Origin: Patescibacteria group bacterium
GTDB lineage: Bacteria > Patescibacteriota > Patescibacteriia > Patescibacteriales > UBA12465
Direction: 5' to 3'
Length of the DNA stretch: 64,000 nucleotides
Assembly (NCBI GenBank): GCA_035269015.1
Contig: DATFJU010000016.1
Coordinates: forward strand, 4,610 to 68,609
Within the stretch, counting starts at the first letter, position 1, and each line of letters opens with the position of its first letter. Positions 55,735 to 59,574 of the stretch are shown one piece after another. The notes beneath the pieces are model-generated. The model did not search any database. It was not told where the DNA came from and worked only from the letters and a program-made list of their open reading frames with translations. The position numbers were made by a program, and so were the translations under genes.

Positions 55735-56553
55735 ATGAAAGAAAGAAGAAAAAAAACTTTTAAGATTATTAGTATAATTATCTCTTTGTTTGCTTTGATA
55801 GTTGTATTTGATACTGACAAAGAAGAGAAGGTGGTTTTCTTAGCAGTTGGACAAGGGGATGCTAGTTTAATATCCACTAAAGGTAGAACAATTTTAATAG
55901 ATGGAGGTCCTAGTTGGCAAGTACTCTTAGAACTTCCTAAAGTTTTAAAATATAAAATGAAGATTAGTGACATTGTAATTACGCATCCACACAGTGATCA
56001 CTACTTTGGTTTAGCAGAGATAATCAATAGATATAAAGTTGATAATATATATTATTATGATAAGAATAAAGGAAATGATATCTTTGAAATCTTTCTTAAT
56101 AATATTAAAACTAAAGATATTAATCTCATTAATGTAAAAAGGGGTGATAGAATTAGGCTTAGAAGTAATTGCTATTTGTATTTTTTGTGGCCAAGAGAAG
56201 AAGAGAGTAAAGGAAGTTTTGATAAGAACGAGCTCTCTATTGTTAATTATTTTAGTTGTGGAAAAGTAAAAATACTTTTTACAGGTGATATTTCTGGGGT
56301 TGTGGAAAAACAGTTGATAAGTATGAATAAAAGCTTAAAATTTGCGGTTTTGAAAGCAGGTCATCATGGTTCAAATAAGAGTAATTCTTGGGATTTTTTA
56401 AGTTTTTATAGCCCTAAAAAAATAGTGATAAGTGCTGGAAAAGACAATAAATATGGGCTTCCTAGCCCTGAAGTGATAAGTAGAGCTAAGGCGCTAAAAA
56501 TAAAAGTTGAAAACTTAATTGAGGGTAAATCTTATGAAATTTTAATAAAATAA
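55735..56553 (+). CDS. Stand-alone ComEC/Rec2-type metallo-beta-lactamase domain protein with one TM anchor
   Basis: FLAVGQGDASLI, ITHPHSDHYFG and AGHHGS motifs. No competence (DNA channel) membrane domain is present. Confidence 0.75.
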   Translation: MKERRKKTFKIISIIISLFALIVVFDTDKEEKVVFLAVGQGDASLISTKGRTILIDGGPSWQVLLELPKVLKYKMKISDIVITHPHSDHYFGLAEIINRYKVDNIYYYDKNKGNDIFEIFLNNIKTKDINLINVKRGDRIRLRSNCYLYFLWPREEESKGSFDKNELSIVNYFSCGKVKILFTGDISGVVEKQLISMNKSLKFAVLKAGHHGSNKSNSWDFLSFYSPKKIVISAGKDNKYGLPSPEVISRAKALKIKVENLIEGKSYEILIK

Positions 56554-56563
56554 GGTTTAACTG

Positions 56564-56592
56564 TTGACAAGTCTGTTTTTCTTTGCTATACT
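56564..56592 (+). promoter_or_regulatory. Near-consensus promoter in front of the sRNA candidate
   Basis: TTGACA (56564-69), a 17-nt spacer, then TATACT (56587-92). Confidence 0.5.
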
Positions 56593-56599
56593 TTCCAGA

Positions 56600-56749
56600 G
56601 TTAGAAAATTAAAAGTTTATAAGACCACTTGAAGCGGGTATGGCACACGACAAGCATGGGGAGGTCATCATCTTTGGTTTCTTAGGCTTAGGCTTAAGGA
56701 CACCGAGAGTTGATTTTCTTGCCTTGCCCGCTTGAGGTGGTCTTTTTTT
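56600..56749 (+). ncRNA. Candidate stand-alone structured small RNA (class unknown)
   Basis: A locally GC-rich block in AT-rich DNA. The closing helix spans 17 positions (15 pairs including one G-U, plus one G-G mismatch): 56622-56638 with 56727-56743. It is followed by U7. There are internal helices and a triple cttagg-like repeat at 56681-56699. No plus-strand gene lies downstream. Confidence 0.45.
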
Positions 56750-56799
56750 ATAGTTATATTTTATATAACTATTTTTTTATATTAAAGTCTTTAGTTTAA

Positions 56800-58662
56800 T
56801 TATTCATTATTATTTTCCTGTTCAGTGTTTTCTTCAATAATCACTTCTTCTGTAGAAGTGGCGGTTTCTTCTTCTTTCTCTTTTCCTATTAAACAAACTT
56901 CTTGCCAAGGTATATAGCGAGAATAGAACCTTCTTTCTCTTTCTTCAGCTTGGCCTTCCTTACCTTCAGGGTATGCTACAGTATAATCAAAATAAGCATC
57001 AGCGCCATTATGAGCGCTTTCAGTACATTTTACCTTACCAGGCTCCATATCTTCAGTTTCAACATATTTAGTAGGGGGTGGTGATTTAATATTGTATATT
57101 ACAGGGTAAGTAGTACTAGCTTGTCTGCCGTCATTAGTACCCCAAAAATCAAAGTATAAATCATTTCCTTCTATGCGATGTTGAATCATTATATGATTAG
57201 GGGTGTCATTTAAAAATCTAAAGTCAGGTTTAGGAGAATAAATAGTGGCATCTGTTCCAGCGGGTTCATAGTATGATACTCGATAGGAGTGATTTCTTCT
57301 TTCGGTTATTTCAAGTCCTGCGTCTAAAGCTGTTCTAAAAACTGTGGTTCCAATCTGACAAAGACCACCGCCATATTCAGGGACAGTTTCATTATCTTTA
57401 ATAACTAATTCAGGTAAATAATTATTTTTAGCATCTATATCTCCCAGGGCTTGTATTAAAGAAAATTCTTGTCCTGGTTTTATAAGTATTCCGTCTAAAC
57501 TTTCTGCTCCTACTCTAATATTATGTTTTCTGTTGTAAGGGGATATAGCAAAACTAGAATGTCCAGTGCCAATGATTTCTTTAATGCCAAGGTTTAAATT
57601 ATCAGAAGTTTCATAATTAATATCTGAGACAATCAAATTAATTTCAGATTCTTTATTTTTTAAAGATTTTTGAAGAAGCTCTGTAGTTTTATTTATTTTT
57701 AAATTTAATCCTTTTTCAGCTAATTGAAATTTTTTTACTTTTCCATCTTCAATAACAAAGTCTGCTTTTACAGGTTCTTTATCTATATTGGGAGCTATTT
57801 CTTTATTTAAGAATTCTTTAATTTTATTATCATTAAACTCAATAATTACCTCTTTATTTTCAGTTTGTTTGAAATTAAGCCATTTAGCAAAATCATCTTT
57901 ATCTACTTGCCATTGTCGGTTTTCATGGTATAAATTGATAGGGCTAATCTCCATTAGTTCATTAGCCTCATTTATTTTATTGTCTACTTCTTGTTTATAT
58001 ATTAGTGGGTAATCTGTTTTATCTTGAAGATAAACAGAAACATCTTGTGCTAAATCTAAGCTATGTTTTAAATCAGAGATAGCTTTTTCATAATCTATAA
58101 CCTTACCTATTTTTTCTTTTTCTATATAAATATTATTTTCATTATCATTGTTAACCTCAATAACTAATTTTGCATCTTGAGCAGGGTATTCAAGTTCTTT
58201 ATATTTAGCTTTAAGTAATTCTCCTATTTTTTTCTCTTCTAAATTATATACTAGTTTAACTTTTTTGCCATTGATTAAGGTACTAAAACTTTTAACAATA
58301 TTTTCTACAAAGGATTTATCTTTTCCATAATTAATAGCGTTCTTAGCAGTTTTTTTAGTGTCAAAAGACACTATGGGATAGGCTAAGTCAGGTTCAAATG
58401 ATGATATTGTGGGACTGAGGTTAGTCTTTTTATCTTGGTAATAGAAAGACATTCCTTCGTTATTGTATTTTTCAACCTCTTTATTTATTAAATTTTCTAT
58501 TTCTTCCTGGTCCCTACCTGAAAGATTATAGTTAGAAAAACTTAAGCCTGAAATCGCTTTATCTTTATAAGATTGACTATATGCAAAAGAAGCAAACACT
58601 AGGCTTGCTATAATAATTATTAATATAATAAATTTTACTTTGTGTTTAAGGAATAAATTCAT
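56800..58662 (-). CDS. VanW-family protein with an N-terminal anchor and an acidic tail
   Basis: GGGLCQIGTTVFRTALDAGLEITERRNHSY is the VanW core. There is a signal anchor and a long N-terminal repeat-like region. Confidence 0.8.
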   Translation of the reverse strand: MNLFLKHKVKFIILIIIIASLVFASFAYSQSYKDKAISGLSFSNYNLSGRDQEEIENLINKEVEKYNNEGMSFYYQDKKTNLSPTISSFEPDLAYPIVSFDTKKTAKNAINYGKDKSFVENIVKSFSTLINGKKVKLVYNLEEKKIGELLKAKYKELEYPAQDAKLVIEVNNDNENNIYIEKEKIGKVIDYEKAISDLKHSLDLAQDVSVYLQDKTDYPLIYKQEVDNKINEANELMEISPINLYHENRQWQVDKDDFAKWLNFKQTENKEVIIEFNDNKIKEFLNKEIAPNIDKEPVKADFVIEDGKVKKFQLAEKGLNLKINKTTELLQKSLKNKESEINLIVSDINYETSDNLNLGIKEIIGTGHSSFAISPYNRKHNIRVGAESLDGILIKPGQEFSLIQALGDIDAKNNYLPELVIKDNETVPEYGGGLCQIGTTVFRTALDAGLEITERRNHSYRVSYYEPAGTDATIYSPKPDFRFLNDTPNHIMIQHRIEGNDLYFDFWGTNDGRQASTTYPVIYNIKSPPPTKYVETEDMEPGKVKCTESAHNGADAYFDYTVAYPEGKEGQAEERERRFYSRYIPWQEVCLIGKEKEEETATSTEEVIIEENTEQENNNE

Positions 58663-58881
58663 TTATTTATTATCATTGGTGTTTAAAATTTCATTTAAAA
58701 TTTCCTTGCCTAGACTTTTCTGGTCTTGTTCTTCTTTATTGAATAATTTAATCTCTATTTCATCAGCAATTTTTATATCATTTGGCAGACTTCCTCTTTT
58801 TACTTTTAATTCTTCATTATCTTTGTTTTGTAAATAAACAAAGTTTTTTTCAATATTTTTAATTTTAAGTTTAATTAACAT
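58663..58881 (-). CDS. Small hypothetical protein (DUF3006-like?)
   Basis: 72 aa. Its stop abuts the VanW start, suggesting translational coupling. The family guess is weak. Confidence 0.4.
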   Translation of the reverse strand: MLIKLKIKNIEKNFVYLQNKDNEELKVKRGSLPNDIKIADEIEIKLFNKEEQDQKSLGKEILNEILNTNDNK

Positions 58882-59411: not shown

Positions 59412-59501
59412 CTTTTACTATAAAATAGCAATATTTAGCTAAAAAGTAAATATTAAATTATATTAAAAATAACCACTTGTGTGTGTGGTTATTTTCTTAT
59501 G

Positions 59502-59574
59502 TGCGCCTAGATGGAATTGAACCATCGACCCCTGCTTTATAAGAGCAGTGCTCTAACCCCTGAGCTATAGGCGC
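59502..59574 (-). tRNA. tRNA-Ile (anticodon UAU)
   Basis: Reverse complement: acceptor gcgccta pairs with taggcgc. The anticodon stem is ctgct/agcag with loop ctTATaa. The T-loop is ttcaatt and the discriminator is A. Confidence 0.85.

What the first reader, a model, noticed from the sequence alone, without database searches (positions are those of the whole stretch)
56564..56749. GC-rich stand-alone structured RNA candidate with its own promoter and terminator
Evidence for a stand-alone RNA:
- Between the ComEC-like gene and the convergent VanW gene lies a TTGACA-17-TATACT promoter element.
- It is followed by a block that is conspicuously GC-rich for this genome, as the tRNAs are.
- The 5' segment 56622-56638 pairs with 56727-56743 over 17 positions: 15 pairs including one G-U, plus one G-G mismatch. 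This helix is followed directly by U7.
- Inside, I can draw ggca/tgcc (56642-45 with 56720-23) and an imperfect 12-bp helix (56667-78 with 56702-14). The latter is capped by a 23-nt apex that contains most of the triple repeat cttaggc-ttaggc-ttaagg (56681-99).
- There is no plus-strand gene downstream that it could regulate.

What it is not, and what it might be:
- I do not see the conserved SRP, RNase P, tmRNA or tRNA-like motifs.
- The rod-with-bubble shape is loosely 6S-like, but it is short for a 6S RNA.
- An embedded 31-codon ORF (56640-56735) lacks a convincing ribosome-binding site.
Basis: seen in the sequence. Interest (0 to 1): 0.55.

Follow-up and report, generated by a model that had tools for sequence, protein, structure and literature searches.

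The report
New small structured RNA in Parcubacteria
This is a real, previously undescribed small non-coding RNA gene with its own promoter and terminator, found only in one clade of tiny-genome candidate-phyla-radiation bacteria; it folds into a long hairpin with an invariant bulge, and its function is unknown.

Summary
The organism is a Patescibacteria/Parcubacteria MAG with about 30% GC. Window 56564-56749 carries a near-consensus promoter (TTGACA, 17 nt, TG-extended TATACT). It is followed by a 125-nt, 47% GC rod-shaped hairpin (56621-56745; MFE -64.4 kcal/mol, z -6.8) that ends in U7.

I found 14 further copies, all in the same syntenic slot: just downstream of a stand-alone ComEC-type MBL gene and, where flanks are held, convergent with VanW.
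- The RNA is 94-99% identical in genomes where fourfold sites of the neighbouring MBL gene are only 51-75% identical.
- In the more distant copies, 15 of 50 base pairs show compensatory double changes. 95.8% of cells are paired, against 39-58% when the partners are slid.
- Nine G·U pairs fix the plus strand as the folding strand.
- The promoter and the U-tract are conserved in every copy.
- The 31-codon ORF is refuted. Its ATG is lost in five homologues and its stop in most.
- There is no Rfam match (6S, SRP or any other) and no viral copy.

The invariant core is a one-sided 10-13-nt bulge, (CA)CGACAAGCAU, with invariant flanking helices. The apex tolerates an 80-nt insertion.

My best reading is a trans-acting, probably protein-binding RNA. 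A 6S-like role is possible but unsupported.

The parts
56564..56569 (+). -35 hexamer TTGACA
   Evidence: One search finds the match. One search shows it invariant in all 14 loci that hold upstream sequence, including the divergent L083, L089, L090 and L091; L094 is seen.
56584..56592 (+). Extended -10 element, TGc-TATACT
   Evidence: flags the TG before the second hexamer. The form TGnTAnAnT is kept in all loci while the spacer sequence varies.
56599..56620 (+). Predicted 5' leader, A-rich and single-stranded. The start site at about 56599-56600 is inferred from the -10 position, not measured.
   Evidence: It is unpaired in the MFE structure. It is 15-28 nt and A-rich in all homologues, but its sequence is not conserved between subclades.
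56621..56640 (+). Basal helix P1, 5' arm. It pairs with 56725-56744.
   Evidence: Searches give the pairing. Six pairs show compensatory double changes. The inner part, CGGGU/GCCCG, is invariant.
56642..56645 (+). GGCA, 5' arm of the invariant 4-bp helix. It pairs with TGCC at 56720-56723.
   Evidence: Invariant in 13 of 13 distinct sequences.
56646..56658 (+). One-sided bulge CACGACAAGCAUG, the invariant core of the family.
   Evidence: It is unpaired in the MFE and consensus structures. CGACAAGCAU is identical in all 15 copies. L090 carries one extra U, and in L094 the bulge is shortened to 10 nt.
56659..56667 (+). G·U-rich helix P2a, 5' arm (GGGAGGUCA). It pairs with 56711-56719 (UGAUUUUCU).
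   Evidence: One search gives the pairing. Its first four pairs (G·U, G-C, G·U, A-U) never vary in 13 distinct sequences. This suggests sequence-specific constraint beyond pairing.
56669..56709 (+). Apical helices (56669/56709, 56671-74/56705-08, 56676-78/56702-04, 56679-87/56692-700) with tetraloop 56688-56691.
   Evidence: Nine pairs of helix 2 carry compensatory changes. The loop varies: UUAG, UCAG, UCCG, UCUG, CAAG. L094 has about 80 nt inserted here and still folds as a rod.
56711..56744 (+). 3' arms of P2a, the GGCA/UGCC helix and P1. The invariant stretch is AUUUUCUUGCCU(N)GCCCG.
56743..56749 (+). U7 tract. Together with P1 it forms an intrinsic terminator.
   Evidence: One search lists a terminator-like site at 56728-56740 followed by TCTTTTTTTA. 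A U-tract is present in all 15 copies.
56750..56778 (+). Second, A/T-only hairpin (10-bp stem, 56750-59 with 56763-72) followed by a T-run. It is probably a back-up plus-strand terminator.
   Evidence: Inverted repeat I12 is 100% complementary. The hairpin is present in the close relatives only: L001, L002, L072, L076, L077 and L085.

Best explanation
Window 56564-56749 is a stand-alone, vertically inherited gene for a small non-coding RNA in one clade of Parcubacteria.

How the transcript is made:
- A sigma-70-type promoter (TTGACA, 17 nt, TG-extended -10) starts transcription at about 56599.
- The transcript is roughly 150 nt. It has a short A-rich leader and then a 125-nt imperfect rod.
- The basal helix of the rod plus U7 terminates transcription.

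Where the function lies:
- The functional centre is neither the apex nor the base. It is the middle of the rod.
- That centre is an invariant one-sided bulge, (CA)CGACAAGCAU. The invariant helices CGGGU-NN-GGCA/UGCC-N-GCCCG and GGGGA/UUUUCU clamp it.

Proposed mechanism (inferred):
- I propose that the RNA acts in trans as an abundant, stable RNA.
- The bulge and its flanking helices would be the recognition site for a protein partner. The RNA would then be a ribonucleoprotein component or a decoy-type RNA.
- The variable-length helices would serve as spacer and stabiliser.

Shown versus inferred:
- Shown: gene anatomy, folding strand, conserved structure, purifying selection at the nucleotide level, and absence of a conserved ORF.
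- Inferred: actual transcription, the ends of the transcript, action in trans, and a protein rather than an RNA partner.
For: Promoter:
- It matches 11 of 12 consensus positions plus the TG.
- It is conserved in every locus that holds upstream sequence, while the spacer and leader vary.

Structure:
- The plus strand folds with z = -6.84. The 200-nt L094 version gives z = -7.5.
- There are 15 homologues, all in the same slot.
- 95.8% of cells are paired, against 39-58% for slid controls.
- 15 of 50 pairs carry compensatory double changes. 0 of 500 shuffles reach this.
- Nine conserved G·U pairs and the 152 versus 34 bit strand asymmetry fix the plus strand as the folding strand.

Selection:
- The RNA is 94-99% identical where MBL fourfold third positions are 51-75% identical.
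- It is still 72-83% identical where the MBL protein is 37-45% identical.

Where the constraint sits:
- Variation falls in the apical loop and the outer helices.
- The bulge and both strands of its flanking helices never vary. G·U pairs there are never 'improved' to G-C. That pattern is typical of a protein or ligand contact surface.
- The apex tolerates an 80-nt insertion.

Other points:
- The near-consensus promoter and integral terminator suggest high, constitutive expression. This is an inference from established promoter knowledge.
- No mRNA start region in the window pairs with the bulge better than shuffled probes do.
Against: - No expression data are available to me.
- No partner protein is identified.
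- The family is narrow: only 13 distinct sequences, several nearly identical. The covariation statistics therefore rest mainly on five divergent copies (L083, L089, L090, L091 and L094).
- An invariant single-stranded segment is also what a base-pairing seed would look like.
- Only 64 kb of the genome could be searched for targets.
- The alignments used for pair counting were fitted to the model structure. An independent RNAalifold run on alignment A3 gave essentially the same helices.
Confidence: 0.55

Rival explanations
1. It is this clade's functional counterpart of 6S RNA. A rod-shaped RNA mimics an open promoter and sequesters the sigma-70 RNA polymerase holoenzyme. The 5'-strand bulge would act as the template-strand part of the bubble and perhaps as a template for a product RNA.
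For: - The RNA has a rod shape, with a conserved unpaired region in the middle flanked by conserved G/C-containing helices.
- The apical stem is variable in length, so the RNA spans 125 to about 195 nt.
- The promoter is strong.
- The weak, invariant G·U helix next to the bulge could melt to enlarge the bubble. This is an inference.
- Housekeeping RNAs of candidate-phyla-radiation bacteria are known to escape Rfam thresholds. RNase P RNA is the documented example (PMC8172020).
Against: - There is no match to any 6S model, even at E <= 10.
- The unpaired region is one-sided: 10-13 nt on the 5' strand and none on the 3' strand.
- The hairpin is shorter than known 6S RNAs, which to my knowledge are about 150-200 nt.
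- Blocking the 5' strand reveals no conserved alternative hairpin of the kind that releases 6S after product-RNA synthesis.
- The distribution is very narrow, whereas 6S is broadly distributed.
Confidence: 0.2
2. It is a base-pairing regulatory sRNA. The invariant bulge, or the A-rich leader, acts as the seed that pairs with mRNAs encoded elsewhere.
For: - The RNA has an invariant single-stranded segment of 10-13 nt.
- It has its own promoter and an intrinsic terminator with a U-tail. This is the usual sRNA anatomy.
Against: - Both strands of the helices next to the bulge are invariant as well, which a seed does not require.
- A rod of 50 or more base pairs is unusual for seed-type sRNAs.
- No start region among 59 ORFs of the window pairs better than shuffled probes do. 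The best is -14.4 kcal/mol, against a shuffled mean of -18.1.
- 12-mer complement hits are all inside or antisense to ORFs, judged against the ORF list.
- The leader is not sequence-conserved.
- Only about 64 kb could be searched.
Confidence: 0.18
3. It is only a cis element: the 3' UTR and bidirectional terminator shared by the convergent MBL and VanW genes, with a fortuitous promoter-like sequence.
For: - It lies between convergent genes, only 10 nt after the MBL stop codon.
- An A-rich tract upstream and a U-tract downstream give a bidirectional-terminator look.
Against: - The -35 hexamer and the TG-extended -10 are conserved in all loci while neighbouring bases change.
- A terminator does not need 125-200 nt, an invariant bulge, or 94-99% sequence identity.
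- Ordinary terminators follow the MBL gene in more distant genomes.
- In L089 a 168-codon ORF separates the RNA from VanW, yet the RNA is unchanged.
Confidence: 0.05
4. It encodes a small protein or a type I toxin: the 31-codon ORF 56640-56735, MAHDKHGEVIIFGFLGLGLRTPRVDFLALPA.
For: - The ORF exists and has a partly hydrophobic stretch.
- Gene callers annotated ORFs here in some contigs.
- Type I toxin mRNAs are strongly folded. This is established knowledge.
Against: - The ATG is absent in L083, L089, L090, L091 and L094, where GUAUGG becomes GUCAGG.
- The TGA stop is TCA in most close relatives, and that change repairs a base pair.
- The few substitutions are mostly non-synonymous (L to S, R to K, D to G). 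About 30 codons show no synonymous drift.
- Indels of 1-2 nt and an 80-nt insertion shift the frame.
- There is no ribosome-binding site.
Confidence: 0.02
5. It is a DNA-level palindrome, such as a recombination, replication or mobile-element site, rather than an RNA.
For: It is a long imperfect inverted repeat: 25-nt arms, 84% complementary.
Against: - Nine conserved G·U pairs would be C·A mismatches on the other strand and in a DNA cruciform.
- The copy is single and syntenic, with no other copy in the window.
- There is none in phage or viral collections.
- The promoter and U-tract are oriented and conserved.
Confidence: 0.02

Closest known systems
6S RNA (ssrS; Rfam RF00013 and related models)
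   Same: - It is a stand-alone, probably abundant RNA.
- It forms a long irregular rod with a conserved unpaired region in the middle.
- Its apical stem is variable.
   Different: - There is no covariance-model match.
- It has a one-sided 10-13-nt bulge instead of a two-sided bubble.
- The hairpin is 125 nt in most members.
- No release hairpin is detectable.
- The family is restricted to one narrow clade.
4.5S / small SRP RNA (Rfam RF00169)
   Same: - It is a hairpin RNA of about 115-125 nt with internal loops.
- It has its own promoter and a 5' leader.
- Its sequence conservation is of housekeeping level.
   Different: - The conserved element lies mid-rod, not near the apex.
- There is no GNAR tetraloop and no AGCA/GGAA-type loops.
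- The apical loop varies freely and is replaced by an 80-nt insertion in L094.
- There is no model match.
Orphan structured sRNA motifs found as GC-rich intergenic islands in AT-rich genomes (the Breaker-type GC-IGR approach, e.g. PMC6429828)
   Same: - It was detected as a GC-rich island in an AT-rich intergenic region.
- It is supported by covariation.
- Its function is unknown.
   Different: It is not among the 4227 Rfam 15 families. It is the only such motif I know of that is confined to this Parcubacteria clade.
Type I toxin mRNAs (hok, fst and aapA types)
   Same: It is a compact, highly folded transcript with long-range 5'-3' pairing, and it contains a short ORF.
   Different: - The ORF is not conserved.
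- No antisense RNA gene is evident.
- The substitution pattern is RNA-like.

Membership tests
6S RNA | Match to the curated covariance models | tested here: not met
   cmscan of the window at gathering scores returns tRNAs only. Scans at E <= 10 over 56450-56850 and over the L094 copy return only noise: Atu_C7, miRNA precursors and rRNA fragments.
6S RNA | Large central bubble with both strands unpaired, flanked by long irregular helices | tested here: not met
   The helices are present, but the unpaired region is a 10-13-nt bulge on the 5' strand only. The 3' strand is continuously paired in the MFE, RNAalifold and model structures.
6S RNA | Length of about 150-200 nt | tested here: inconclusive
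   The hairpin is 125 nt and the predicted primary transcript about 150 nt in most members. The L094 hairpin is about 195 nt. The transcript ends are not measured.
6S RNA | Binds the sigma-70 holoenzyme and templates a product RNA that triggers a structural rearrangement | not testable with these tools
   A proxy test blocked the 5' strand and refolded seven homologues. It showed no conserved alternative hairpin.
SRP RNA (4.5S) | Match to the curated models, and the apex-proximal conserved loops with a GNAR tetraloop that bind Ffh | tested here: not met
   There is no model match. The apical loop varies (UUAG, UCAG, UCCG, UCUG, CAAG) and is replaced by an 80-nt insertion in L094. The conserved element lies about 30 bp from the apex.
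Small protein / type I toxin gene | An ORF conserved in start, stop and frame, with substitutions biased to synonymous sites | tested here: not met
   The ATG is lost in five homologues and the stop in most. Frame-shifting indels occur, and changes are mostly non-synonymous.
Intrinsic (rho-independent) terminator | A G+C-rich stem followed directly by a U-tract | tested here: met
   One search finds the site, and the U-tract is present in all 15 copies. This describes the 3' end of the RNA. It does not explain the promoter, the length or the invariant bulge.
Stand-alone structured sRNA gene (generic) | Own promoter and terminator, conserved secondary structure with covariation, and no conserved ORF | tested here: met
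   Searches show these features, and the ORF analysis is given in the row above. Expression itself is not testable here.
Seed-type base-pairing sRNA | A conserved accessible seed with conserved complementary sites in target mRNAs | tested here: inconclusive
   A seed candidate exists: the invariant bulge. No target in the 64-kb window beats shuffled probes. The rest of the genome was not available.

The most novel reading that the evidence does not exclude
The RNA could be the RNA subunit or decoy of a so far unknown ribonucleoprotein specific to a lineage of candidate-phyla-radiation bacteria. One concrete version is a minimal 6S-type RNA polymerase trap with only the template-strand half of the bubble. 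Another is a partner of a conserved neighbouring protein. That partner could be the stand-alone ComEC-type MBL nuclease immediately upstream, or the 72-residue S1/DUF3006-like protein in the VanW operon.
Probability: 0.2. Interest if true: 0.65.

Novelty: new member of a known kind. Interest (0 to 1): 0.5.

Why it matters
Candidate-phyla-radiation bacteria have genomes below 1 Mb, almost no cultured members and very few described regulatory RNAs. In this clade the RNA is kept nearly unchanged while neighbouring proteins drift to 40-75% identity. It also appears to have one of the strongest promoters in the region. Such an RNA is likely to do something central for these cells. It offers a concrete handle for metatranscriptomics and for biochemical pull-downs in a group where housekeeping RNAs are known to be atypical. 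If it proved to be a minimal 6S analogue or a new ribonucleoprotein, it would add to the short list of broadly important bacterial RNAs. If not, it remains one more orphan sRNA family.

Tried and rejected
- **Rfam.** I scanned the window at gathering scores. I also scanned at E <= 10 over the locus and over the long L094 version. I scanned seven related loci and 20 distant MBL loci. Only tRNAs and noise came back.
- **More distant genomes.** Models R1 and R2 were run over 53 loci whose MBL is 45% identical or less. They were also run over two VanW loci without MBL (L092, L093). They found only ordinary terminators. Stable hairpins after the MBL gene in those loci are perfect palindromes or terminators, not homologues.
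- **Metagenome scan with a 19-mer of the bulge.** It gave six true copies and two chance matches. The chance matches lie in coding genes: an SNF2 helicase in L087 and a cytidine deaminase in L081. The pattern was too strict. It would have missed L094-type copies.
- **Viral and phage origin.** The 23-mer gave 0 hits. The 15-mer gave 76 hits, which is about the chance expectation. None matches the model. blastn against phage genomes gave no match.
- **Target search.** I searched for the bulge complement and ran duplex folding against 59 start regions. Nothing exceeded shuffled probes.
- **6S-type rearrangement test.** No conserved alternative helix appeared.
- **Shine-Dalgarno idea.** GGAGGUCAUC resembles a complement of the 16S 3' end. 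I dropped this because only GGGGA is conserved in the divergent copies.
- **9-codon ORF from the second AUG.** I rejected it because its frame and length are not conserved.
- **Literature.** Full-text searches for non-coding RNAs of candidate-phyla-radiation bacteria, and for the core sequence itself, found nothing describing this RNA.
- **Technical failures.** One folding scan timed out and produced nothing. One literature query was rejected for a term that was too short.

Full report
**Organism and setting**

The window is AT-rich, at about 30% GC. Its proteins have their best matches in MAGs labelled Patescibacteria or Parcubacteria group.

The gene order around the finding is ArgRS, GlyRS, MscL and a stand-alone ComEC-type metallo-beta-lactamase (MBL) protein (55735-56553, plus strand). 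On the minus strand, converging on it, lie VanW (56800-58662), a 72-residue S1/DUF3006-like ORF, HSP20 and two tRNAs. The candidate fills the 246-nt gap between the MBL and VanW genes.

**Check of the observation**

- The promoter scan reports TTGACA, 17 nt, TATACT at 56564-56592. It matches 11 of 12 positions and has a TG just upstream of the -10. It is the best promoter-like site in the 2-kb region.
- The plus strand from 56621 to 56745 folds into one long imperfect hairpin at -64.4 kcal/mol. Dinucleotide shuffles give -37.2 +/- 4.0, so z = -6.84, and 0 of 200 shuffles fold as well.
- The reverse complement folds much less well, at -39.4 kcal/mol.
- T7 follows the hairpin directly.

There are two small corrections.
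- The basal helix has 16 pairs plus one G-G mismatch, not 15 pairs.
- The '23-nt apex' is a 9-bp helix with a tetraloop. The 'triple repeat' is just its two arms.

No other copy exists in the window.

**Known families**

cmscan against all 4227 Rfam 15 families finds only seven tRNAs in the window at gathering scores. At E <= 10 over the locus it finds only noise. The same holds for the longest homologue. The RNA is therefore not SRP, 6S, RNase P, tmRNA, 5S, a riboswitch, or any other curated family.

**Homologues**

I collected loci by three routes.
- Relatives of the MBL protein in genome contigs.
- Look-ups of MBL and VanW homologues by exact protein.
- One metagenome scan with a 19-mer from the bulge.

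Fifteen loci carry the element. These are the window and L001, L002, L072, L075, L076, L077, L079, L082, L083, L085, L089, L090, L091 and L094. Wherever flanks are held, the element lies just downstream of the MBL gene on the same strand. VanW then converges on it.

In L089 a 168-codon ORF of unknown function is inserted between the RNA and VanW. The RNA is not disturbed.

The element is absent elsewhere.
- It is missing from 53 loci of more distant Parcubacteria whose MBL protein is 45% identical or less.
- It is missing from two VanW loci that lack the MBL gene.
- It is missing from viral and phage collections.

As far as I could sample, the family is confined to one clade and is inherited vertically.

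**Selection**

Between the window and its close relatives the RNA is 94-99% identical. Over the same comparisons the MBL protein is 57-77% identical, and fourfold-degenerate third positions are only 51-75% identical. In the distant members the MBL protein is 37-45% identical and the RNA is still 72-83% identical. This is constraint at the nucleotide level.

**Structure**

The divergent copies provide the test of the structure. On the 15-sequence alignment (13 distinct sequences):
- 95.8% of cells form standard pairs, against 39-58% when the 3' partners are slid by 1-3 columns.
- 15 of 50 pairs show changes on both sides that keep the pair.
- 0 of 500 column shuffles reach the observed values (similar figures without L094).
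- RNAalifold on alignment A3 recovers the same helices.

Examples of compensatory change are C-G to U-A at columns 5/121 and 62/79, and G-C to A-U at 14/112.

Nine positions are conserved G·U pairs. These would be C·A mismatches on the other strand. The covariance model scores 152 bits on the plus strand and 34 on the minus strand. The folding strand is therefore the plus strand, in the direction set by the promoter and the U-tract.

**Promoter and ends**

TTGACA and TGnTAnAnT are kept in every locus that holds upstream sequence. The spacer and the 15-28-nt A-rich leader vary between subclades. The U-tract is kept in all copies.

Close relatives also share a second, A/T-only hairpin plus T-run just downstream.

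The transcription start (about 56599) and the 3' end are inferred from these signals. They are not measured.

**The ORF**

The 31-codon ORF is not conserved.
- Its ATG is GUCAGG in L083, L089, L090, L091 and L094.
- Its TGA is TCA in most close relatives, and that change repairs the G-G mismatch of the helix.
- The few other changes are mostly non-synonymous.
- Indels and an 80-nt insertion shift the frame.

The coding reading is rejected.

**Anatomy of conservation**

What never varies is the middle of the rod:
- CGGGU-NN-GGCA;
- the one-sided bulge (CA)CGACAAGCAU;
- GGGGA on the 5' strand;
- AUUUUCUUGCC-U(N)-GCCCG on the 3' strand.

The first four pairs of the helix above the bulge are G·U, G-C, G·U and A-U. 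They are invariant, and the wobble pairs are never replaced by G-C or A-U. This points to sequence-specific recognition of both strands.

By contrast the outer basal helix and the apical helices covary, and the tetraloop varies freely. In L094 about 80 nt are inserted at the apex. That copy still folds as a rod of about 200 nt (-79.1 kcal/mol, z -7.5).

**Mechanism**

The gene anatomy suggests a constitutively and strongly expressed, very stable RNA. Three features favour a protein or ribonucleoprotein recognition site over a simple pairing seed.
- The bulge is invariant.
- Both strands of the neighbouring helices are invariant.
- The rest of the rod tolerates changes in length.

I give the generic trans-acting, protein-binding reading about 0.55. 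That the locus is a real non-coding RNA gene I hold at about 0.9.

A 6S-type RNA polymerase decoy is the closest known analogue in shape, and housekeeping RNAs of candidate-phyla-radiation bacteria can escape Rfam (PMC8172020). Several tests go against it.
- The bubble is one-sided.
- No 6S model matches.
- No release hairpin appears when the 5' strand is blocked.
- The family is narrow.

A seed-type sRNA remains possible. No start region in the window pairs with the bulge better than shuffled probes do, but only 64 kb could be searched.

The remaining readings are poorly supported, for the reasons given under the rival explanations. These are a pure terminator or 3' UTR, a DNA palindrome, and a small protein.

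**Verdict**

The locus is a new family of stand-alone structured small RNA, specific to a Parcubacteria clade. Its anatomy is well defined, with a conserved promoter, a covarying rod, an invariant mid-rod bulge and an integral terminator. Its function is unknown.

It is a solid but moderate discovery. It would become more important if the bulge proves to be the docking site of RNA polymerase or of a lineage-specific protein.

Noticed in passing
window 59501-59574 (minus strand): ARAGORN calls a tRNA-Ile with anticodon UAU, next to tRNA-Val(GAC). To my knowledge bacteria usually read AUA with a lysidine-modified CAU tRNA, so a UAU isoacceptor suggests a different AUA decoding strategy in this lineage. 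tRNAs occupy the same position in L089, L090 and L094, but I did not check their anticodons.
   Followed up: no
window 58663-58881 (minus strand): A 72-residue ORF lies between HSP20 and VanW. It gives weak hits to an S1 RNA-binding domain (22.1 bits, cutoff 21.8) and to DUF3006. Homologues of 70-73 residues sit in the same place in L072, L076, L077 and L088-L090 (no Pfam hit on record for several of them), and in L093 and L094. L092, which lacks the RNA, has no such ORF between HSP20 and VanW. It could be a candidate RNA partner, but L093 has the ORF and no RNA nearby.
   Followed up: partly
window 55735-56553: The ComEC-type MBL domain is encoded as a separate 272-residue protein, not as the C-terminal domain of a full ComEC. 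The RNA gene starts 10 nt after its stop codon in the window. It stays directly downstream of this gene in every locus where flanks are held, even where other neighbours change (L075, L089).
   Followed up: partly
window 56750-56778: A perfect 10-bp A/T-only hairpin followed by a T-run lies directly after the RNA's own terminator. It is conserved only among close relatives. It is probably a back-up terminator that protects VanW from convergent read-through.
   Followed up: partly
L094 4932-5132 (minus strand): The most distant homologue carries an insertion of about 80 nt at the apex and a bulge shortened to CGACAAGCAU. It still folds as one rod of about 200 nt. The family may therefore be wider than the 19-mer scan could see.
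   Followed up: yes
L089 4427-4933 (minus strand): A 168-codon ORF with no Pfam match is inserted downstream of the RNA on the same strand, between the RNA and VanW. It is the only case with a gene downstream of the RNA.
   Followed up: partly
L093 4983-6392: In a Falkowbacteria-like contig, VanW is followed by a reverse transcriptase (RVT_1) and a bAvd gene. This is the signature of a diversity-generating retroelement.
   Followed up: no
L081 1026-1044 and L087 2758-2776: The 19-mer of the bulge also occurs by chance inside GC-rich coding genes. One is a cytidine/dCMP deaminase and the other an SNF2 helicase. These hits are unrelated to the RNA and show the limits of short-pattern scans.
   Followed up: yes
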